NCBI GenBank assembly: GCA_016840095.1
Contig: JAEOSZ010000031.1
Coordinates: 64,001-128,000, forward strand
DNA length: 64,000 nucleotides
Origin: Candidatus Heimdallarchaeota archaeon
Lineage (GTDB): Archaea; Asgardarchaeota; Heimdallarchaeia; Heimdallarchaeales; Heimdallarchaeaceae
Reading direction: 5' to 3'
A program made the position numbers and the translations under genes. Positions 5,183-15,243 of the stretch are shown piece by piece; the stretch's first letter is position 1; each line of letters opens with the position of its first letter. The notes beneath the pieces are model-generated. The model did not search any database and was not told the origin of the DNA. It saw only the letters and a list, made by a program, of their open reading frames with translations.

Positions 5183-6073
5183 ATGAAAATTCTTGCAGGT
5201 CCTAATTCTGAGCAAATGACTCAAAAATTAGTAGAGCATTTGAATCTGAATCAATTAGGTTTATCTTACAAATATTTTACTGATGGAGAAACGTATCTTC
5301 AAGTTGAAGGAATACTGGATAAAGATGATGTAATTATTGTTCAAACAACCTTTCCTCATCAAGAAAAAAGTTTGCTTGAGCTAATCTTTCTTGCTAAAAC
5401 TGTAAAGGAAATGGGAGCTGACAAGGTTATTGCAGTAGTTCCATACCTAAGCTATGCGAGAGCTGATAGAAAAAGAGTAGAAGGAGAAGTTATTTCCCAT
5501 AGTGTAATTATGGATTTACTTTCAGCTGTTGAAATCGATACTATGGTTACAATCAATGTACATAATCCTGAAGCTTTTCATAAAACTGCAGAAAAAATGG
5601 AAAAATACAATCTAAGTGCTATACCTGCAATAATTGATTATTTCAAAGAAAAAACAGATAAAAATTGGATTGTAGTAGGTCCTGATAAAGGAAGCAAAGA
5701 GGATATAGATGTTCTTGCCCGAGAATTATCTCTTCCAAGTTATATTTTAGAGAAATATAGAGATCCAATTAGTCATGAAGTCAATTTTGAAGAAGTAAAA
5801 TTTGAGTGCAAATCAAAATCAATTATTCTTTTGGATGATATAATCACTTCAGGTGGAACAGCTCTAAAAGCAATTAAGATGTTACTTGAGAAGAATCCTT
5901 TGAGTATCCAATTTGTAGTTATACATCCACTTGCCGAAGGTAAGGTTTTCAATGAAATGAGAGAGATGGGAGTTAAGGATATTCTCACAGTTAATACAGT
6001 ACCAAGAGAAGATATGGAGCAAATTGACATTAGCTATATGATAAGTAAATTCATTGAGGAAAAATTTCTATGA
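5183..6073 (+). CDS. prs: ribose-phosphate pyrophosphokinase
   Basis: FTDGE, PYLSYARADR, GPDKG and PRPP-binding LLDDIITSGGT. Confidence 0.93.
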   Translation: MKILAGPNSEQMTQKLVEHLNLNQLGLSYKYFTDGETYLQVEGILDKDDVIIVQTTFPHQEKSLLELIFLAKTVKEMGADKVIAVVPYLSYARADRKRVEGEVISHSVIMDLLSAVEIDTMVTINVHNPEAFHKTAEKMEKYNLSAIPAIIDYFKEKTDKNWIVVGPDKGSKEDIDVLARELSLPSYILEKYRDPISHEVNFEEVKFECKSKSIILLDDIITSGGTALKAIKMLLEKNPLSIQFVVIHPLAEGKVFNEMREMGVKDILTVNTVPREDMEQIDISYMISKFIEEKFL

Positions 6074-7098
6074 AAAAATATCTTGCACATATCTGTGGTC
6101 ACTTTCAACCTCTAGGATATGAAGAATTATATGCAGTTCTGGAAGCAGAAAATATCTCCTATTCTATCTTAGAAGTTAATTCTCAAGTGGTTATATTTGA
6201 AACAGCAGATAACCCACTTTATGCGGTAAGTAGATGTGCATTTGTTCACTCATTAATTGAATTATTAGGTACTGGAGAAATTGAAGATGAAAAATTTACC
6301 TTTCTTCATTCCTATGATATTTCTGAATTGGATTCTGGATCAACTTTCTGTTCAAGAGTAACTAAAATTGGAGAGAAAGAAGTTAAAATTAGATTAATGG
6401 ATTTAGAAAGAGAATTAGGTAATCATATTTTCAATAAATTTTCTTCTAAAAAATTTACTGTAAATTTAAAATCTCCAGATTATATATTTAGAACCATTCT
6501 AATAAAGAATCGTTTCTTCTTAGGTTTAGAAATATGGGCAATTAATCGTAAGAAATTTTCTATTCGAGAACCAGGAAAAAGAGATTTCTTCAGACCTGGA
6601 GCAATGAGAACTGATTATGCTAGAGCTCTTGTAAATTTATCTAGAATAAAGAAAGATGAAATTTTCTTTGATCCCTTCTGTGGAGGAGGAGGTTTTCTTC
6701 TAGAAGCATCTTATCTGGGAGCTTATGCAATTGGTTCAGATTTAGATTATACTGCTGTTAAAGGTTCCACCAAAAATATGAAGCAGTTTAAACAATATAC
6801 TGCTGAATTACTTCATGGAGATTCTCGAAATATTCCTATAAGATCATTCCATGCAATTGCAACTGATCCTCCATATTCTCTACAATCATCTACACACGGC
6901 GAAAAGGTTTCTCAATTAACCTATGATTTTTTGATCGAATCAAGAGAACACTTGATGAAAAACAGATATCTTGTTTATTGTACTCCTTCTACAATTGAAC
7001 CTGAGCACATTGTTGAAAGAACTGAATATAAGATAGTAACACTAATAGATACTTTCATACATAAATCGTTAACTAGAAGAATTCTTGTCTTAAAGTGA
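6070..7098 (+). CDS. THUMP-domain tRNA (guanine-10-N2) methyltransferase (Trm11/TrmG10 family)
   Basis: THUMP-like N-terminus (VNLKSPD), DPFCGGGGFL SAM motif, TDPPY, HKSLTRRI. Confidence 0.9.
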   Translation: MKKYLAHICGHFQPLGYEELYAVLEAENISYSILEVNSQVVIFETADNPLYAVSRCAFVHSLIELLGTGEIEDEKFTFLHSYDISELDSGSTFCSRVTKIGEKEVKIRLMDLERELGNHIFNKFSSKKFTVNLKSPDYIFRTILIKNRFFLGLEIWAINRKKFSIREPGKRDFFRPGAMRTDYARALVNLSRIKKDEIFFDPFCGGGGFLLEASYLGAYAIGSDLDYTAVKGSTKNMKQFKQYTAELLHGDSRNIPIRSFHAIATDPPYSLQSSTHGEKVSQLTYDFLIESREHLMKNRYLVYCTPSTIEPEHIVERTEYKIVTLIDTFIHKSLTRRILVLK

Positions 7099-7102
7099 TA
7101 GA

Positions 7103-8023
7103 ATGGCAAATGAGATAACTGTAACTTTTCTTGGAACATCTTCAGCTCCTCCCCAATTATCTAGAAAACAAAGTGCAACAGTGGTGAAATACAAGAGTCA
7201 TACCCTATTATATGATGTTGGAGAAGCAACGCAATACCAAATGATAAAACACAAAATCAAGTTTACAAAATTGACAATTATTCTAACTCATCTTCATTCT
7301 GACCATACATTGGGCTTGATGGGACTACTTACGACAAGGAATTTTAGAAATATTAAAACTCCGATAACAATAATAGGTCCCGAATGGACTTCCAAGTTCA
7401 TTTCTCTCTTATTCTTTGCATATAGATTCAAACCTGATTTTGAGATTACCATCATTGAAACTTCTGGAGGAATAGTTCTAGAAAATAAGGATTTTACTTT
7501 GGAATCATTTCCATTAAGCCACTCAGATACTAGTTTTGGCTACAATCTTGTTACAAAACCCAAAATCGGCAGATTCAATATTAATAAAGCAGTTAAACTC
7601 GGTATACCAAAAGGAGAATTGTGGAAGAAACTTCAAAACGGAAATTCGATAGAAATTGATGAAAAAACAATCCACCCATCAGCTGTTCTAGATGAAGTTG
7701 AGGATGATAGTATGAAAATCACAATTACAGGAGATACACCATTCGATGAAACAACAATAGAGCATGCTCAAAATGCTAATCTGTTAATTCATGATGCGAC
7801 TTACCCTTCCTATGAAGAAGAAAGAGCAAAAAAATATCTCCATTCTACTTGTGTAGATGCAGCAGAAGTTGCTAAAAAAGCTAAGGTTAAACGATTAATT
7901 ATGACACATATTTCTGAACTTCACAAAGACTTAGATGAATCATTGAGAGATGCTCAAGAAATCTTTTCAAACTGTGAATTTGCTGAAGATGGACTAAAGA
8001 TTAAATTGAAATTTAAAGACTAA
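7103..8023 (+). CDS. rnz: ribonuclease Z
   Basis: FLGTSS, DVGE, THLHSDH, exosite GIPKGELWKKLQNG, GDT, HDAT, HST, THIS. Confidence 0.95.
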   Translation: MANEITVTFLGTSSAPPQLSRKQSATVVKYKSHTLLYDVGEATQYQMIKHKIKFTKLTIILTHLHSDHTLGLMGLLTTRNFRNIKTPITIIGPEWTSKFISLLFFAYRFKPDFEITIIETSGGIVLENKDFTLESFPLSHSDTSFGYNLVTKPKIGRFNINKAVKLGIPKGELWKKLQNGNSIEIDEKTIHPSAVLDEVEDDSMKITITGDTPFDETTIEHAQNANLLIHDATYPSYEEERAKKYLHSTCVDAAEVAKKAKVKRLIMTHISELHKDLDESLRDAQEIFSNCEFAEDGLKIKLKFKD

Positions 8024-8462
8024 AAATCTCTGAAAATTTCCTAGGTTGAATTTCTTTGCCATCCTCTGTTTTTGGTGCAAACCAATCCTTGAATTCATAA
8101 GAATTTTCTGCTTTTATTATCAATTGAACGTTTCCTAACGGGGATGAAGAATCTTCAGTAATGAAAGCAATTTTGTTTACAAAAAGTGCTTGTTTATGTA
8201 AGTTAATGACTAATGAATCTAAAGTAGTATCATAAGATATACATTTTCTAACAGAATCTAAAATTCCATTTCTTCGAATATAATTGAACAACCTTTCTAG
8301 AGTTTTCATTGGAATATTATCTGCAATAAGATAGGTTATATTGTCTTCCGCAATTTGCTTGATTTCAGGAAGTTCCTCAACTAAATTTTCAAAGCATACT
8401 AGTACTTTGTCTTCTTCTTCTGTAGGATAGAGAGGGACTCGCAAGCTTACTTTAAGTTGCAT
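8013..8462 (-). CDS. DUF54 / UPF0201 RNA-binding protein
   Basis: YPTEEEDKV, ILDSVR, LHKQAL, SPLGNV and WFAPKTEDG family motifs; usual neighbour of the UPF0200 kinase. Confidence 0.88.
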   Translation of the reverse strand: MQLKVSLRVPLYPTEEEDKVLVCFENLVEELPEIKQIAEDNITYLIADNIPMKTLERLFNYIRRNGILDSVRKCISYDTTLDSLVINLHKQALFVNKIAFITEDSSSPLGNVQLIIKAENSYEFKDWFAPKTEDGKEIQPRKFSEIFSL

Positions 8463-8466
8463 TACT

Positions 8467-9048
8467 TCACCTTGTTTCTAACTCTTCAAGAAGGCTTAAT
8501 GATTGTTTTCTAAAAGATTCTATGGTACTGTTATTTGGAATAACATAATTTGAGAAAGCAATAGTCTCACCAAGACCAAGTTTTAGTTCACTATCATCTC
8601 TTAATCGAAAATCTTCCTCTGTCTGAGGAGCATCTTTTCTACCTCTTATCTTAAGACGTTCATATCTTAGGATTGGATCTACATGAATTGCTACAATAAT
8701 AAAATCATTATTGAGATGTTCTTTGAAGTGAGATACTTCTGCTTGACTTCTAATTCCATCAATAATTATTTTGTAAAAACCTTGTTGCTTTAACTTCAAT
8801 ATAGCAGTACATGTTAAATGAGCTACAGCAGTTTCTCCGAGTTCTTCTCTTAATTTGAGCATATATTTTCTGCTCATTTCAGGAGTTGGTTCAAATCCTT
8901 CCTCTACTACTTTTGCTCTAACAACATCTCCCATAACAACAGTATGATAACCAAGTTCTTCTGCAAAATTTGCAAACTCACTTTTACCAGAACCTGGCAT
9001 TCCAGTTACACCAATAATAGTTGTTTTAGGTTTTGTCATTAAGTTCAT
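8467..9048 (-). CDS. UPF0200 P-loop kinase (archaeal dephospho-CoA kinase-like)
   Basis: GMPGSGKS, MGDVVR, DGIRS..EV, RGRKD, RD..ELKLG. Confidence 0.88.
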   Translation of the reverse strand: MNLMTKPKTTIIGVTGMPGSGKSEFANFAEELGYHTVVMGDVVRAKVVEEGFEPTPEMSRKYMLKLREELGETAVAHLTCTAILKLKQQGFYKIIIDGIRSQAEVSHFKEHLNNDFIIVAIHVDPILRYERLKIRGRKDAPQTEEDFRLRDDSELKLGLGETIAFSNYVIPNNSTIESFRKQSLSLLEELETR

Positions 9049-9121
9049 TGTGAGTAGATTTAATGTAATTAAAAATGTTGTTAAAGCAAATTAATTTGAT
9101 AAATGCAACAAAACATATAAA

Positions 9122-9712
9122 ATGATAGTAAACTACAACATGCAAATGGTTCGAGCTTTCATATCAATAGATTTCAAAGATGAGAAAATCTTGAAGGGAG
9201 TTCTAGAAATACAGCAGCAAATTAGGAATTCAAATGCAGCTATTAGGTTAGTAAATCCTGAGATATTACATATAACATTGGAATTCATTGGTGAAATTAC
9301 TGATGAACAAGTTTCAGTATTATCTGACATGCTATCAAAAATCGAATTTAAAAGCTTAAAACTTGAAGTAAACGAACCAGGAGTGCTTCCAAATGAGAAG
9401 TACGTTAGAGTTGTATATTGCGAAGTCAACGGAGATATAGAAAGATTGAAAGAAATACAAAAAGAAATCAGAAATAACCTCAGAAAGCTAGGATTTAGAG
9501 TAGATTCAAGGACTTTCAAACCTCATCTTACGATAGGGCGAGTTAAATCTCCAAAGAATAAAGAAGAATTGATTAAGGTTATAAAGAACCTATCTGAATA
9601 CAGATGTGGAGTGCAAGAAATTAGCTCAATTACTCTAAAAAAATCTGAACTAAAACCTGAAGGACCAGCGTATTCAGTTCTATATAAGGTAGATGCAATA
9701 GACAAAAGGTGA
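9122..9712 (+). CDS. thpR: RNA 2',3'-cyclic phosphodiesterase (2H family)
   Basis: RAFISID and two HxT motifs (HITLEFIG, PHLTIGR); SELKPEGPAY. True start may be 9140 or 9146. Confidence 0.93.
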   Translation: MIVNYNMQMVRAFISIDFKDEKILKGVLEIQQQIRNSNAAIRLVNPEILHITLEFIGEITDEQVSVLSDMLSKIEFKSLKLEVNEPGVLPNEKYVRVVYCEVNGDIERLKEIQKEIRNNLRKLGFRVDSRTFKPHLTIGRVKSPKNKEELIKVIKNLSEYRCGVQEISSITLKKSELKPEGPAYSVLYKVDAIDKR

Positions 9713-9716
9713 TTTC

Positions 9717-11204
9717 ATGAGCGAAGAAAATCCTAAGGATCTTTCGAAAGAAATTGAAACAAAAGTGCTAGAAGTAATTCAAGTTCAATGGGAACAACAT
9801 GAGAGAGTTAGAGAAATTATTTCGATTCTCAGAGAAAAGATACAAATGGATTTAGGCTCCTTAGGTTATGTTGGAAGAGTTGAAACTCAAGGTTCTTTTG
9901 TTAGGAAAACTTACCTTAGTGAGGATGATACCTTCGATTTACTACTTATCTTACAGAGATCAGATAAACCAAAAGTGCATCAAATTCTTGATGCCTTAGA
10001 AAAGAGGTTAAAGAAAGATAGAATCAATAAAGATCCAATCACAATTACAAAGCATACAGGAAAAATACCTTATCTTAGAATAGTTGCTGGTGATGAGTTG
10101 GTCAATCTCTTTGTAGGGTTTGAGATAACTCCTGGTGAAGATAATATTTCAATTTTTGATTATTTACCCATGCACTCTCAATATCTAATTACACACATGA
10201 AAGAAGAAGATAGGAATGAAGTCCTTCTTTTGAAGAAATTTCTGAAAACTATAGGCGTGTATAGACATGAAGTTGGATCTATAGGTTTTAATGGATATCT
10301 CTGTGAATTGCTCATTTTGTTCTATGGAACTTTTCAGAAAACAATTGATGCAATAGGAAAATGGAGAGCAAGAACAATTATCGATTTAAAAAAGAACTTG
10401 GAAAAATCTGAGGATGTAGATCTTTTAACAAGCGAAATGCTGTTGAAATATTACCCGCTTTATGTGCCAGATCCACTAAATCCAAAAGATAATGTTGCTG
10501 CTGATGTGTCTATTGATCAGTTTACTTCAGTAATAGCTGCAGCAAATACATACAAATTTGATCCTAAAATCAGTTTCTTTGAAGATCTATTATGCGAGAT
10601 TCCTACATATTCAGATCTTATGAGAAAAATTATTCATTCAGGGAGACAATTAGTAGTTTTAGCAACTAAACGAAACTTCCAAGAATCAGAAATATGCTGG
10701 CAAAAAGCAATGTCAATGAAGAATGCTTTCCAAGGTGAATTATTTAATAATAATTATATTTTGGAAAGGTCAAAAACATTTGTTTCTGATGAGTATTATG
10801 GTTTATTTCTATCATTAATGGATGTCAATCCGCAAATCTCAATAAGAAAAGAAGGTCCTTTAATCACCTCAGATGAATCAATAAAATTCTTACAACAATA
10901 TACCAAACATGTTGATGTAGTTTCTGGACCGTTTATAGATAATGATAGATGGGTAATTCATTTTACAAAGAAAGGACAAAATGTATTCGAATTCCTAGAA
11001 AACTTAGTGAAAAAGAATACTTTCATGTTGAATGTTGATTCATTTCTAAAAATTGAGATTAAAGAAAAATTGAAGATTTTTGGTGCAGATGAAAAATTAA
11101 GAGAAATATATGAAACAGATGGTTCTTTTGCAGAATACATGTTTTTATTCATAGAGCGAAAACCACTATGGATTTGCAACCTAAAAGAAAATGAAGAAAT
11201 ATGA
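9717..11204 (+). CDS. cca: class I (archaeal) CCA-adding enzyme homolog with degenerate catalytic residues
   Basis: GSFVRKTYL, PYL, LLKKFLKTIGVY, GFNGYLCELLILFYGTF, DPLNPKDNVAA, GP motifs; syntenic with thpR. DxD is T-F-D and the third Asp is Asn. Confidence 0.85.
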   Translation: MSEENPKDLSKEIETKVLEVIQVQWEQHERVREIISILREKIQMDLGSLGYVGRVETQGSFVRKTYLSEDDTFDLLLILQRSDKPKVHQILDALEKRLKKDRINKDPITITKHTGKIPYLRIVAGDELVNLFVGFEITPGEDNISIFDYLPMHSQYLITHMKEEDRNEVLLLKKFLKTIGVYRHEVGSIGFNGYLCELLILFYGTFQKTIDAIGKWRARTIIDLKKNLEKSEDVDLLTSEMLLKYYPLYVPDPLNPKDNVAADVSIDQFTSVIAAANTYKFDPKISFFEDLLCEIPTYSDLMRKIIHSGRQLVVLATKRNFQESEICWQKAMSMKNAFQGELFNNNYILERSKTFVSDEYYGLFLSLMDVNPQISIRKEGPLITSDESIKFLQQYTKHVDVVSGPFIDNDRWVIHFTKKGQNVFEFLENLVKKNTFMLNVDSFLKIEIKEKLKIFGADEKLREIYETDGSFAEYMFLFIERKPLWICNLKENEEI

Positions 11205-11220: not shown

Positions 11221-12714
11221 TTATTTTTTGAATTTCTTTCTATAAATTACTGCAACAATTGGTGCAACTGCTAGAGTTATGAACAATGCATCTGATAAGC
11301 CAAATCCTAGAGTAAAAGTATTACTACCACCAGGGTTTGTTGTAGGTTCTTCACCTTGTATTAAGAGTTTTATAGCATGAACGATGAAATGTGGTTTGCC
11401 ATCGATATCTTTTAGTTCAAAGTAGTTTGGACCATACATTGAATCATCAGAAGCTAAAGAAGTAATAAAGATTGTATCTCCAACACTGTAATCACTGTCT
11501 CGTCCAAGTGTGTCTCCCGAAGCTAAAGGTTTAGAAAATTCAACATGATGATAACCAGAAACATATGTGTAGTTTGCTTGACCATCATTAGTTCCACCTT
11601 CATCCACATCATTTGTAGGTTCTCCTTCATATAGGAAAGCATCAGTGTATCCATACTCGTTAATCATAATGAAGTCTGTACCATATGTGTCGTTAAGCAT
11701 ATCAAGTGATTTTCCTAAAACAAATCCTAAGAAATCTTCACTTGTAGCATAATCATCATACACTTTGAAATGTATGTAGAAATTCACTCCATCATGGAAG
11801 AGTTTTATTTGAGCATCTACAGTATTCATAGGATCGAAAGTTCCATCACTATAATTTTGGAATGAAAGTGTGATATCATATTGTGTAGCATCAGCCCATG
11901 CAGGTTCATCTGCAATTCCATCATAAACAATAGTTCCAGTCAAGAAAGGAGCTTGGTAAGTTTCACCTTCAACCCATAAGAATCCACGATCATCATCATT
12001 AGTACCAAAATCAAGTTCATCTCCACTGTCATGACCAATACTCAATCGAATATATCTGAAATCAACTTCAGTGATTGTTCCATAGTTTGCTGGATCAGAG
12101 GAAGGATACACATTTACCCATACAGTAAATTCTACAGCTATAGCTTCTCCATATTCTAAGTCAATGTCTTTCCCAGTTTCATCACCTGATTGAATATACT
12201 TTGCGAATTCAAAGTATGTGCCATTATCTCCTTGGTAATTCAAAGATGCAAATACATCATGTGTTCCAAAGATGTCTCCATCAACTTGAGGAGTAGTTAC
12301 CATATCGTCAGGTTCAGGAAAAGCCATATCATAATATGCTGGACCACTATATGCATCCATAAGCACACCATCATTTTGTCCTTCTTGTCCGAAGAAATGA
12401 ACTTGCATGGCTTTAACATGACCCACTTGATCTGGTATATATGCATAGAAGAACAGGTAAGAATTATTATATGCAAACTTGAAATTTACATTGACAAAAC
12501 TAGAAGGATTTCCAAACTCATAAGCATCAATCATACTAAGTGTTGGATTTGTCCAGTCTGCTATACTTCCATCTAAAACAATACCATCATCATAAGGAGC
12601 TATTACAGCTAAAGCTGCAGGTGGTGTGTCTCCAGAGCCTGCATTCAGCATATTAACACCCATAAAGGTTAAACCAATAATTAATAATAGACCTAACATA
12701 GTTGTTTTCTTCAA
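11221..12714 (-). CDS. secreted/surface protein with two DOMON/CBM9-like domains and C-terminal membrane anchor
   Basis: Signal peptide; duplicated units IVLDGSIADW...FEFAKYIQSGDETGKD and IVYDGIADEPAW...VEFSKPLASGDTLGRD; C-terminal TM followed by RKKFKK. Confidence 0.7.
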   Translation of the reverse strand: MKKTTMLGLLLIIGLTFMGVNMLNAGSGDTPPAALAVIAPYDDGIVLDGSIADWTNPTLSMIDAYEFGNPSSFVNVNFKFAYNNSYLFFYAYIPDQVGHVKAMQVHFFGQEGQNDGVLMDAYSGPAYYDMAFPEPDDMVTTPQVDGDIFGTHDVFASLNYQGDNGTYFEFAKYIQSGDETGKDIDLEYGEAIAVEFTVWVNVYPSSDPANYGTITEVDFRYIRLSIGHDSGDELDFGTNDDDRGFLWVEGETYQAPFLTGTIVYDGIADEPAWADATQYDITLSFQNYSDGTFDPMNTVDAQIKLFHDGVNFYIHFKVYDDYATSEDFLGFVLGKSLDMLNDTYGTDFIMINEYGYTDAFLYEGEPTNDVDEGGTNDGQANYTYVSGYHHVEFSKPLASGDTLGRDSDYSVGDTIFITSLASDDSMYGPNYFELKDIDGKPHFIVHAIKLLIQGEEPTTNPGGSNTFTLGFGLSDALFITLAVAPIVAVIYRKKFKK

Positions 12715-13872: not shown

Positions 13873-15243
13873 CTATTTCTTCATTCTTTTGCCAATAAAA
13901 ATTGGAATTACTAAAGCGATTAGTAGTATCCAGTAAGTTGGAAAACTTGTTTTAGTGAAGACAGCAGGATTCTTAAGAGGATAAGGGTCAACAGTATTAA
14001 ATGGACCATCTAGAGGATATTCAGACATTCTTCCTAAATTATCCCAATAGTTCCCCTCATTAGTATCTATATCATACCAAGTTGTGTTTAATCCTTCGTC
14101 AAATGCTTGACTCGTACCCTTTTTGTTATTTTTTATGAAATCATTATGATGGATAGTGTGATTGTAAGCCCGATATTCTTGTGTTTCAAAAAGAATGGTT
14201 AAGTTTAGAAAAATCGCATATAGTGTATTTTCATTAAAAATATTGTAACTATAACTTACAAAATATCCTATGGCTTTGATTCCATAGAAATTCTCGCTTA
14301 TCTCATTATAAGTGATGCTTATGTTACCTGTAGATTTATAGATCTCAATTCCATATATTGAATTATTAGTACAGGTGTTGTTTCTAAATGTAGAATTGTA
14401 ACAGGAAATTCCGATTCCTATTTCATTATTCGTACAATAATTATTTGAAATCTCACTATTATCAGACATTAGGAGCATTCCAATATCATTACCAATGCAG
14501 TTATTATCGAAAACCACCAAATCTGAACCATATAAAACTATACCACCCGCATTATATTTGATGATATTCTCTTTAATCACGCTCCCTGAAATACCAACAA
14601 GATCAATCGCTCGGTGACTATTGAATTCACATGTATTTTTCTCAACTAAATAGGCAGAGAAATTACTATAATAGATATTTGCAATTGCTATACCATAAGT
14701 GTTATTTGACACAATATTTGATGAGATGATTGCAGTGTACTTATCTTCAAGTAAAGGTTCTTCCCCTGTGATATTCTCAGGAGCTGGGACCTGTGGATAA
14801 TAATCTGTATAAACTATTCCAGTAGCGTTATTGTTTTTGACTATATTATTGACAATTTGTGCTGTACCCGGAACTATTCTGAGTATTCTAATACCTATCT
14901 TTTCAGCATCAACCTTGCAATTCCTTATTATGAAACTACTTGATGTAGAATTTATAGAAATTCCTACAGAAGATGATGTATTAATATCTAGATTTTCAAT
15001 CAAATATGGCTCTTCAGGGGTTCCTAAACCCGAAAATCCATAATCTGAAAAGTTATCATCTGAACTAATCAGAATAGGTCCACTAGAAACTAAAGAATCA
15101 AGGTTGAATGTTTCAGTCTGATGGATTTGCCTAGCTTCTAATCCAATTTGTTCTAAAGAAAGAGTATAAGGAATAAAAACTGAGCTTAGGCAAATTACTA
15201 ATACCAAAGAAATTGATTTGATTCTTGTATAGGTTCTAATCAT
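13873..15243 (-). CDS. NosD-like right-handed parallel beta-helix surface protein
   Basis: Signal peptide, GLGTPEEPYLIEN, repeated NNxxxNNxxGI units, GNYW and DPYPL, C-terminal TM with basic tail. Confidence 0.88.
   Translation of the reverse strand: MIRTYTRIKSISLVLVICLSSVFIPYTLSLEQIGLEARQIHQTETFNLDSLVSSGPILISSDDNFSDYGFSGLGTPEEPYLIENLDINTSSSVGISINSTSSSFIIRNCKVDAEKIGIRILRIVPGTAQIVNNIVKNNNATGIVYTDYYPQVPAPENITGEEPLLEDKYTAIISSNIVSNNTYGIAIANIYYSNFSAYLVEKNTCEFNSHRAIDLVGISGSVIKENIIKYNAGGIVLYGSDLVVFDNNCIGNDIGMLLMSDNSEISNNYCTNNEIGIGISCYNSTFRNNTCTNNSIYGIEIYKSTGNISITYNEISENFYGIKAIGYFVSYSYNIFNENTLYAIFLNLTILFETQEYRAYNHTIHHNDFIKNNKKGTSQAFDEGLNTTWYDIDTNEGNYWDNLGRMSEYPLDGPFNTVDPYPLKNPAVFTKTSFPTYWILLIALVIPIFIGKRMKK

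What the first reader, a model, noticed from the sequence alone, without database searches (positions are those of the whole stretch)
9717..11204. CCA-adding enzyme in its usual locus but with the catalytic triad degenerate
Seen and compared with Archaeoglobus fulgidus CCA as recalled: GSYARNTWLKGSLEIDVF corresponds to GSFVRKTYLSEDDTFDLL, so the first metal carboxylate is Thr72. EVDVVP corresponds to LVNLFV, so the third carboxylate is Asn130. AVDRTPFH corresponds to IFDYLPMH. The base-recognition Arg of DPVDEKRNVA is Asp (DPLNPKDNVA). The ORF is full length, intact and still next to thpR, rnz and DUF54. Inference: a maintained pseudo-nucleotidyltransferase, such as a tRNA-binding scaffold or the inactive partner of a heterodimer, implying CCA addition is supplied by another gene or by genomically encoded CCA ends.
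Basis: partly seen in the sequence, partly recalled or inferred. Interest (0 to 1): 0.7.

Follow-up and report, generated by a model that had tools for sequence, protein, structure and literature searches.

The report
Dead archaeal CCA enzyme, still conserved
This Heimdallarchaeal gene is an intact copy of the archaeal tRNA CCA-adding enzyme that has lost its catalytic residues because a bacterial-type enzyme in the same genome took over the job. A 2026 preprint already reports this, but not why the dead copy is so strongly conserved.

Summary
ORF 9717-11204 (+, 495 aa) is a full-length class I CCA-adding enzyme homologue with the whole head-neck-body-tail fold. It has lost the first metal carboxylate (T72), the base-selecting Arg (D258), the DRTP motif and four other positions that are conserved in at least 68 of 70 canonical relatives.

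The genome has one class I gene and an intact class II enzyme on another contig, and 33 of 34 tRNA genes detected encode CCA. The same substitutions occur in all five genera of the family. Sister families without class II keep the canonical residues, and two families with class II have lost class I entirely.

This is already known. Cassidy et al. (bioRxiv 10.64898/2026.05.29.728689) showed the Heimdallarchaeum aukensis orthologue is inactive in vitro and that its class II enzyme adds CCA.

New here:
- dN/dS is 0.06-0.11, below its neighbours in nearly all gene-by-pair comparisons.
- The dead copy is more conserved than the active class II enzyme.
- It sits on a long stem branch with a shallow crown.
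- The thpR-cca operon is preserved.
- Asn at the third carboxylate is not diagnostic.

It is a maintained pseudoenzyme, not a relic. Its role is unknown; my best guess is non-catalytic RNA-end or nucleotide binding.

The parts
9717..11204 (+). Catalytically degenerate class I CCA-adding enzyme homologue (495 aa, P0001)
   Evidence: ORF. PF09249 and PF21133 match. AfCCA E 2e-26. AF2 pLDDT 90.1 and Foldseek TM 0.72/0.80 to AfCCA 3ovs.
9891..9938 (+). Remnant of the G-S...[DE]xD motif. G59-S60 are kept, D70-D71 sit in the loop, T72 replaces the first metal carboxylate, and D74 is kept
   Evidence: Position 72 is D/E in 70 of 70 canonical relatives and T/S/V in 16 of 16 family members. Position 71 is D/E in 16 of 16 family members.
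10104..10106 (+). N130 at the third-carboxylate position (N or H across the family)
   Evidence: Asn is also found in 7 of 70 otherwise canonical relatives, so it is not diagnostic on its own.
10158..10175 (+). DYLPMH in place of the conserved DRTPxH motif (R149 and T150 lost)
10410..10421 (+). Family-specific invariant EDVD motif (residues 232-235) in the neck hairpin turn, in a flexible region (235-237 below pLDDT 50)
10488..10490 (+). D258 in place of the base-selecting Arg (AfCCA R224)
   Evidence: R in 70 of 70 canonical relatives; D/E/N in the family. The same loss is reported in the preprint.
9122..9712 (+). thpR (RNA 2',3'-cyclic phosphodiesterase) with both HxT motifs intact. Its stop is 4 nt before the cca1 ATG, and AGGTGA overlaps the stop
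   Evidence: The thpR-cca1 tandem is conserved in all five genera of the family.
8467..9048 (-). P-loop kinase-like gene (AAA_17/18/33), divergent from thpR
8013..8462 (-). DUF54 / PF01877 'RNA_binding' protein
7103..8023 (+). RNase Z
   Evidence: NF000801 at 294 bits against a 252 cut-off.
6070..7098 (+). THUMP-domain tRNA methyltransferase (TIGR01177 family; scores below its curated cut-off)

Best explanation
[quoted passage not shown] A bacterial-type class II enzyme took over CCA addition and repair. In the family's common ancestor the class I protein then lost its catalytic machinery: the first metal carboxylate, the base-selecting Arg, DRTP, the His equivalent to AfCCA H97 (query position 117), and others. 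It did not decay afterwards. It kept the complete four-domain fold, its place directly downstream of thpR, and about half of the old nucleotide pocket (GS, R63, T65, D74, D148, H153, Y194, D252-P253, N259). It has since evolved under strong purifying selection.

The most likely present role is therefore non-catalytic: a pseudoenzyme that still binds an RNA 3' end and/or a nucleotide within tRNA-end metabolism. New CCA synthesis is barely needed because all tRNA genes encode CCA, and repair is done by the class II enzyme.

Shown here or in the preprint: loss of catalytic residues, inactivity of an orthologue, presence and activity of class II, purifying selection, operon conservation. Inferred: that a function exists. 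Speculative: what it binds.
For: Residue losses are seen against AfCCA and 70 canonical relatives. They are shared by all five genera of the family.

Sister families f2 and f4, in which no class II enzyme was found, keep DxD, D130, DRTP and R258.

In 301 Asgard genomes:
- Class II is concentrated in f1 (26/30), f3 (8/9) and f5 (19/22), against 4/240 elsewhere.
- Class I is missing exactly from f3 (0/9) and f5 (2/22).

Class I and class II lie on the same contig in G001 and G005, and in two single-contig genomes, so class II is not contamination.

The preprint reports that H. aukensis CCA1 is 'completely inactive' with 1 mM NTPs and that its CCA2 adds full CCA.

Selection and conservation:
- dN/dS is 0.06-0.11 at dS 0.12-0.33, against 0.07-0.36 for six neighbouring genes in the same genome pairs. 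It is the lowest value in nearly every pair.
- Identity to other genera is 55-89% for the dead enzyme, against 39-62% for the active class II enzyme in the same genomes.
- The family clade sits on the longest internal branch of the tree (1.48, median 0.13) with a crown depth of 0.58.
- 116 of 495 residues are invariant, and the head and neck are the most conserved domains.

The fold is intact, with pLDDT 90 and TM 0.72/0.80 to AfCCA. The thpR-cca1 tandem is kept in every genus. tRNA genes encode CCA in 33 of 34 cases.
Against: No direct evidence of expression or of any binding activity for this protein.

Net charge has dropped from about +6 in canonical enzymes to about -7. The neck and tail have turned acidic, and 5 of 12 conserved basic positions are lost. 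This argues against unchanged tRNA binding.

ThpR is retained in the families that lost class I entirely, so ThpR does not need this partner.

The in vitro inactivity was measured on an orthologue only 55-56% identical, with one substrate, Mg2+ and 37 C.
Confidence: 0.8

Rival explanations
1. The protein is still an enzyme with a rebuilt active site. It would be a nucleotidyltransferase, or a related activity, with a different substrate, nucleotide or metal. It would use D70, D/E71, D74, N/H130 and perhaps the EDVD loop.
For: The pocket is the most conserved part of the protein. GS, R63, T65, D74, D148, H153, Y194, D252 and N259 are all retained. Position 71 is invariantly acidic only in this family, position 130 alternates between N and H (both polar, His can bind metal), and EDVD is invariant. 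An acidic residue replacing the base-reading Arg would reverse the hydrogen-bond pattern (inference). The preprint assay used a single substrate and condition.
Against: Eight positions conserved in at least 68 of 70 canonical relatives are lost together, including the first metal carboxylate. The orthologue added nothing to tRNA with all four NTPs. D70 and D71 precede the strand that starts at T72 in the model. I could not measure the geometry because model coordinates are not exposed.
Confidence: 0.12
2. It is a silenced relic with no function, on its way to being lost as in the two families that now have class II only.
For: Families f3 and f5 have lost class I entirely. The preprint calls it 'intact but silenced'.
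Against: dN/dS is 0.06-0.11, below its neighbours in nearly all comparisons. The full-length frame is intact in 27 of 30 genomes across five genera. It is more conserved than the active class II enzyme and than thpR. The tree shows a long stem but a shallow crown.
Confidence: 0.04
3. It is the inactive subunit of a heterodimer with an active class I enzyme.
For: Class I CCA enzymes form homodimers (stated in PMC3794860).
Against: Only one class I gene is present in this 89%-complete genome. The next PF09249 match has E 0.34. One copy per genome is also the rule in relatives, including single-contig genomes.
Confidence: 0.02

Closest known systems
Heimdallarchaeum aukensis CCA1 ('Heim12' class 1 enzyme), Cassidy et al. 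2026, bioRxiv 10.64898/2026.05.29.728689
   Same: It belongs to the same orthologous group. The g13 orthologues are 55-56% identical and carry the R-to-N change the preprint describes. The class II partner and the family-wide loss of the Arg are also shared.
   Different: This gene is from a different genus and has Asp, not Asn, at the Arg position. The preprint cites only the Arg loss and indels. It does not report the lost carboxylate, DRTP or His, the selection analysis, the thpR operon or the encoded CCA.
[quoted passage not shown]
   Same: Same four-domain fold (TM 0.72/0.80) at about 23% identity. It also shares GS, the second carboxylate, the stacking Tyr, and DP...N of the neck.
   Different: AfCCA's E59, D110, H97, R-T of DRTP and R224 are replaced here, and the protein is net acidic.
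Utp22/NOL6 of eukaryotes (4m5d), a ribosome-biogenesis factor built from two dead class I CCA-enzyme modules (PMC3794860)
   Same: It has a class I CCA-enzyme fold with degenerate catalytic carboxylates and is kept for a non-catalytic RNA-processing role. It appears among the fold matches (rank 15, E 1e-12). In both cases the organism uses class II for CCA addition.
   Different: Utp22 is a tandem duplication of about 1,200 aa with no detectable sequence similarity. Nothing here shows specific kinship, because any class I enzyme would match it at fold level.
Class II CCA-adding enzymes (the partner gene, G000 contig C25, P0002)
   Same: This enzyme supplies the function that the dead enzyme lost. 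It has motif A GGFVRD...DVDF, motif B RRDFTVNA and motif D EDYLRMFRAIRF. PF01743 and PF12627 match.
   Different: It is an unrelated neck, body and tail architecture of bacterial type. The best solved relative is the Aquifex A-adding enzyme (E 1e-29).

Membership tests
Class I (archaeal) CCA-adding enzyme | Head-neck-body-tail fold and homology to the family | tested here: met
   PF09249 E 3e-29 and PF21133 match. AfCCA E 2e-26 over residues 12-419. Foldseek TM 0.72/0.80.
Class I (archaeal) CCA-adding enzyme | G-S ... [DE]-x-D metal-binding motif in the head domain | tested here: not met
   GS and D74 are present, but the first carboxylate is T72. It is D/E in 70 of 70 canonical relatives.
Class I (archaeal) CCA-adding enzyme | Third catalytic carboxylate (AfCCA D110) | tested here: inconclusive
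   N130 here. However, 7 of 70 otherwise canonical relatives also have Asn.
Class I (archaeal) CCA-adding enzyme | Base-selecting Arg of the neck (AfCCA R224) | tested here: not met
   D258 here. It is R in 70 of 70 canonical relatives.
Class I (archaeal) CCA-adding enzyme | DRTPxH motif and the His at query position 117 (aligned to AfCCA H97) | tested here: not met
   DYLPMH, and I117.
Class I (archaeal) CCA-adding enzyme | Curated equivalog score (TIGR03671) | tested here: not met
   219 bits against a cut-off of 281.3.
Class I (archaeal) CCA-adding enzyme | CCA-adding activity on tRNA | not testable with these tools
   An orthologue from another genus is inactive in vitro (preprint).
Inactive 'Heim12' CCA1 clade (Cassidy et al. 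2026) | Loss of the NTP-selecting Arg in a genome that also has class II, in Heimdallarchaeaceae | tested here: met
   D258. Class II is present in the genome. The gene forms a monophyletic clade, support 1.0, with the g13 orthologues that carry the R-to-N change. Relatives are titled Ca. Heimdallarchaeota. The family name itself is my inference.

The most novel reading that the evidence does not exclude
The dead class I enzyme has been recruited to a new, non-catalytic RNA-processing job, in the way eukaryotic Utp22 was. On this reading Heimdallarchaeaceae preserve an intermediate stage on the road to the eukaryote-like state, in which class II does CCA addition, tRNA genes no longer encode CCA, and a dead class I module serves elsewhere. 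The family would then be the place to learn how and why a displaced translation enzyme is exapted.
Probability: 0.1. Interest if true: 0.85.

Novelty: already known. Interest (0 to 1): 0.4.

Why it matters
The core fact is in a 2026 preprint: an inactive class I CCA enzyme sits beside an active bacterial-type enzyme in Heimdallarchaeaceae, close archaeal relatives of eukaryotes. The finding is therefore not new.

What remains open is why the dead copy is kept under stronger constraint than the live enzyme. That makes it a clean natural case of a core translation enzyme turning into a pseudoenzyme after displacement. The parallel to eukaryotic Utp22 gives it some evolutionary interest.

Across the three states, encoded CCA in the tRNA genes behaves as follows:
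- Class I only: present in four of the five families sampled.
- Dead class I plus class II: retained.
- Class II only: all or nearly all lost.

I did not see this pattern described, and it could be tested on all available genomes.

Tried and rejected
- Complex prediction of ThpR with the dead enzyme. No verdict (score 0.00), so it counts neither for nor against binding.
- Search for sequencing runs to test expression and read support. Read errors are excluded instead by the independent assemblies that share the substitutions.
- A second class I gene as heterodimer partner. None found.
- Contamination as the source of the class II gene. Rejected, because GC is 0.332 like the rest of the genome. 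Class I and II are also on the same contig in G001 and G005, and both are present in two single-contig genomes.
- A simple rule that 'encoded CCA goes with presence of class I'. Rejected as a general rule, because one class-I-only family (f14) shows no encoded CCA in 5 genes.
- My first count of genes 'ending in cca'. It over-counted, because an acceptor strand ending in CC followed by A73 looks like CCA. I replaced it with a test of acceptor-stem register.
- Bacterial promoter and terminator scan. Uninformative for an archaeon.
- Geometry of D70 and D71 relative to D74. Not measurable, because model coordinates are not exposed.

Full report
**What is there.** Window 9717-11204 (+) is an uninterrupted 495-aa ORF. 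Pfam finds the second and C-terminal domains of class I CCA-adding enzymes (PF09249, E 3e-29; PF21133), but nothing from the catalytic head was reported. NCBIfam's archaeal CCA model scores 219 bits, below its 281.3 cut-off.
- E59 becomes T72.
- D61 is kept as D74.
- D110 becomes N130.
- DRTPFH becomes DYLPMH.
- R224 becomes D258.

An AlphaFold2 model built on an 86-sequence alignment is confident (pLDDT 90.1, pTM 0.85). It superposes on AfCCA over all four domains (TM 0.72/0.80). The protein is therefore a structurally complete class I enzyme.

**How unusual the substitutions are.** I compared it with 70 canonical relatives drawn from a search of 1.84 billion cluster representatives. The following positions are conserved in the canonical set and are all replaced here and in every family member:

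| Position | Canonical relatives (of 70) |
|---|---|
| 72 | D/E in 70 |
| 117 | H in 69 |
| 133 | P in 70 |
| 149 | R/K in 70 |
| 150 | T/S in 70 |
| 192 | S in 68 |
| 258 | R in 70 |

Among the best 150 representatives, only members of this clade lack these residues. One correction to the finding is needed. Asn at the third-carboxylate position also occurs in 7 of 70 otherwise fully canonical relatives, so N130 alone proves nothing.

**Who carries it.** Close relatives are deposited as Candidatus Heimdallarchaeota MAGs.
- The orthologue is found in 22 of 24 genomes of the genus, at 67-89% identity, and in all four other genera of the family.
- All of them carry T/S/V72, D74, N/H130, D/E/N258 and the altered DRTP.
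- Two sister families of the same order keep DxD, D130, DRTP and R258.

**What replaced it.** The genome has no second class I gene. It does have a 471-aa class II enzyme on contig C25, with intact motifs GGFVRD...DVDF, RRDFTVNA and EDYLRMFRAIRF. Its closest solved relative is the Aquifex A-adding enzyme. In 301 Asgard genomes:

| Family | Class II present | Class I present |
|---|---|---|
| f1 (this family) | 26/30 | 27/30 |
| f3 | 8/9 | 0/9 |
| f5 | 19/22 | 2/22 |
| all other families | 4/240 | nearly universal |

The two sister families with a canonical class I enzyme showed no class II in the genomes searched. Both genes lie on one contig in two MAGs and in two single-contig genomes, so class II is not contamination.

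**Prior art.** A preprint (Cassidy, Doktor, Betat, Morl, Prohaska; bioRxiv 10.64898/2026.05.29.728689) reports the same distribution:
- Heimdallarchaeaceae have both classes.
- Hodarchaeales have class II only.
- Gerdarchaeales have class I only.

It shows that recombinant H. aukensis class I enzyme is completely inactive on tRNA with all NTPs, while its class II enzyme adds full CCA. It attributes the inactivity to loss of the NTP-selecting Arg, conserved across the family. The R-to-N change it describes matches my g13 orthologues. The finding is therefore already known. The preprint calls the gene 'intact but silenced'. In the text and supplement I read, it does not address metal ligands, selection, gene context or encoded CCA.

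**What I can add.**
- *Selection.* In close genome pairs (dS 0.12-0.33) dN/dS of this gene is 0.06-0.11. Six neighbouring genes give 0.07-0.36 in the same pairs, and the dead enzyme is the lowest in nearly every pair.
- *Conservation relative to the live enzyme.* Between the same genomes the dead enzyme is more conserved than the live class II enzyme:
  - 89% against 62%;
  - 78% against 51%;
  - 55% against 39%.
- *Tree shape.* The family is monophyletic on the longest internal branch (1.48 substitutions per site; median 0.13) with a shallow crown (0.58). This pattern indicates a burst of change followed by renewed constraint.
- *Where the conservation lies.* 116 residues are invariant across 27 sequences, and the head (25%) and neck (32%) are more conserved than the body and tail. 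About half of the old pocket is kept (GS, R63, T65, D74, D148, H153, Y194, D252, N259). New family-specific invariants appear: an acidic residue at 71, N192, and EDVD at 232-235.
- *Operon.* thpR, with both HxT motifs, ends 4 nt before the ATG, with AGGTGA overlapping the stop. This tandem is kept in all five genera, as in canonical Asgard lineages.
- *Charge.* The protein has turned net acidic (about -7 against +6). It has lost 5 of 12 conserved basic positions, mainly in the neck and tail. tRNA binding cannot simply be assumed.
- *ThpR independence.* ThpR persists in the families that lost class I.

**Encoded CCA.** A test of acceptor-stem register gives the following.
- This genome: 33 of 34 tRNA genes found by ARAGORN encode CCA. 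The remaining one is an artefact at a contig end.
- Two other family genomes: 6/6 and 3/3.
- Class-I-only families: 6/6, 5/5, 7/7 and 2/3, but 0/5 in one Loki-like family.
- Class-II-only families f3 and f5: 0/18, 0/11, 0/8, 0/13 and 2/7.

These samples are small and the genomes are related. Still, within the class the family with the dead enzyme keeps encoded CCA, while the families that dropped class I have lost all or nearly all of it.

**Mechanism.** The best reading (0.8) is a pseudoenzyme. It is dead for CCA addition, replaced by class II, and buffered by encoded CCA. It is kept by selection for a non-catalytic role, most likely binding an RNA 3' end and/or a nucleotide within the tRNA-end processing island (THUMP methyltransferase, RNase Z, DUF54, P-loop kinase, ThpR). 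The loss of residues, the replacement and the constraint are shown. The ligand is a guess. A rebuilt active site with a new activity is the main rival (0.12). A neutral relic (0.04) and a heterodimer partner (0.02) are disfavoured.

Eukaryotic Utp22, a dead tandem class I module used in ribosome biogenesis (PMC3794860), is the closest functional analogue and appears among the fold matches. Nothing here shows specific kinship to it.

Noticed in passing
G000 contig C25:4958-8323 (L003, ORF 634-2049 on the minus strand), outside the window: An intact class II (bacterial/eukaryotic-type) CCA-adding enzyme of 471 aa. It diverges faster between genera (39-62% identity) than the dead class I enzyme (55-89%) in the same genome pairs.
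   Followed up: yes
tRNA loci of G000, G045, G041, G029, G244, G112, G080, G218, G030, G034, G036, G259, G167 (L162-L270): Genome-encoded CCA is present in all tRNA genes sampled in the family with the dead class I enzyme, and in four of five class-I-only families sampled. It is absent or nearly so (0/18, 0/11, 0/8, 0/13, 2/7) in the two Heimdallarchaeial families that have class II only. One class-I-only family (f14) also lacks it. I did not find this described in the two preprints checked.
   Followed up: partly
Genomes of family f5 (e.g. G259:C1:3492343-3492720 and G259:C1:987252-987623): Most f5 genomes carry two class II genes, one in an open frame of about 650-700 aa and one of about 385-415 aa. 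The preprint mentions CCA2 paralogues in Hodarchaeales. Whether they split CC- and A-addition was not examined.
   Followed up: no
Proteins P0017, P0019, P0020, P0021, P0046, P0051, P0058: Otherwise canonical class I CCA enzymes (DxD, His, DRTP and Arg all present) have Asn instead of the third catalytic Asp (V-N-[ILV]-V-P). This suggests the position is not strictly required, or that another residue compensates.
   Followed up: partly
window 6070-9712: A conserved tRNA/RNA-end processing island lies upstream of the dead enzyme: THUMP methyltransferase, RNase Z, DUF54, a P-loop kinase-like gene and thpR. The order is kept across the genus. DUF54 also lies upstream of thpR in another family of the class.
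   Followed up: partly
G000 contig C28:21961-22035, outside the window: ARAGORN reports a tRNA-like gene with an undetermined anticodon ('tc'). It encodes CCA and lies between the two tRNA-Gln genes.
   Followed up: no
window 11221-12714 (-) and 13873-15243 (-): Two large predicted surface or secreted proteins with an N-terminal signal-like segment and a C-terminal hydrophobic anchor. The second has beta-helix-like repeats similar to the gene next to the class II enzyme on C25. The first is conserved downstream of the dead enzyme in part of the genus.
   Followed up: no
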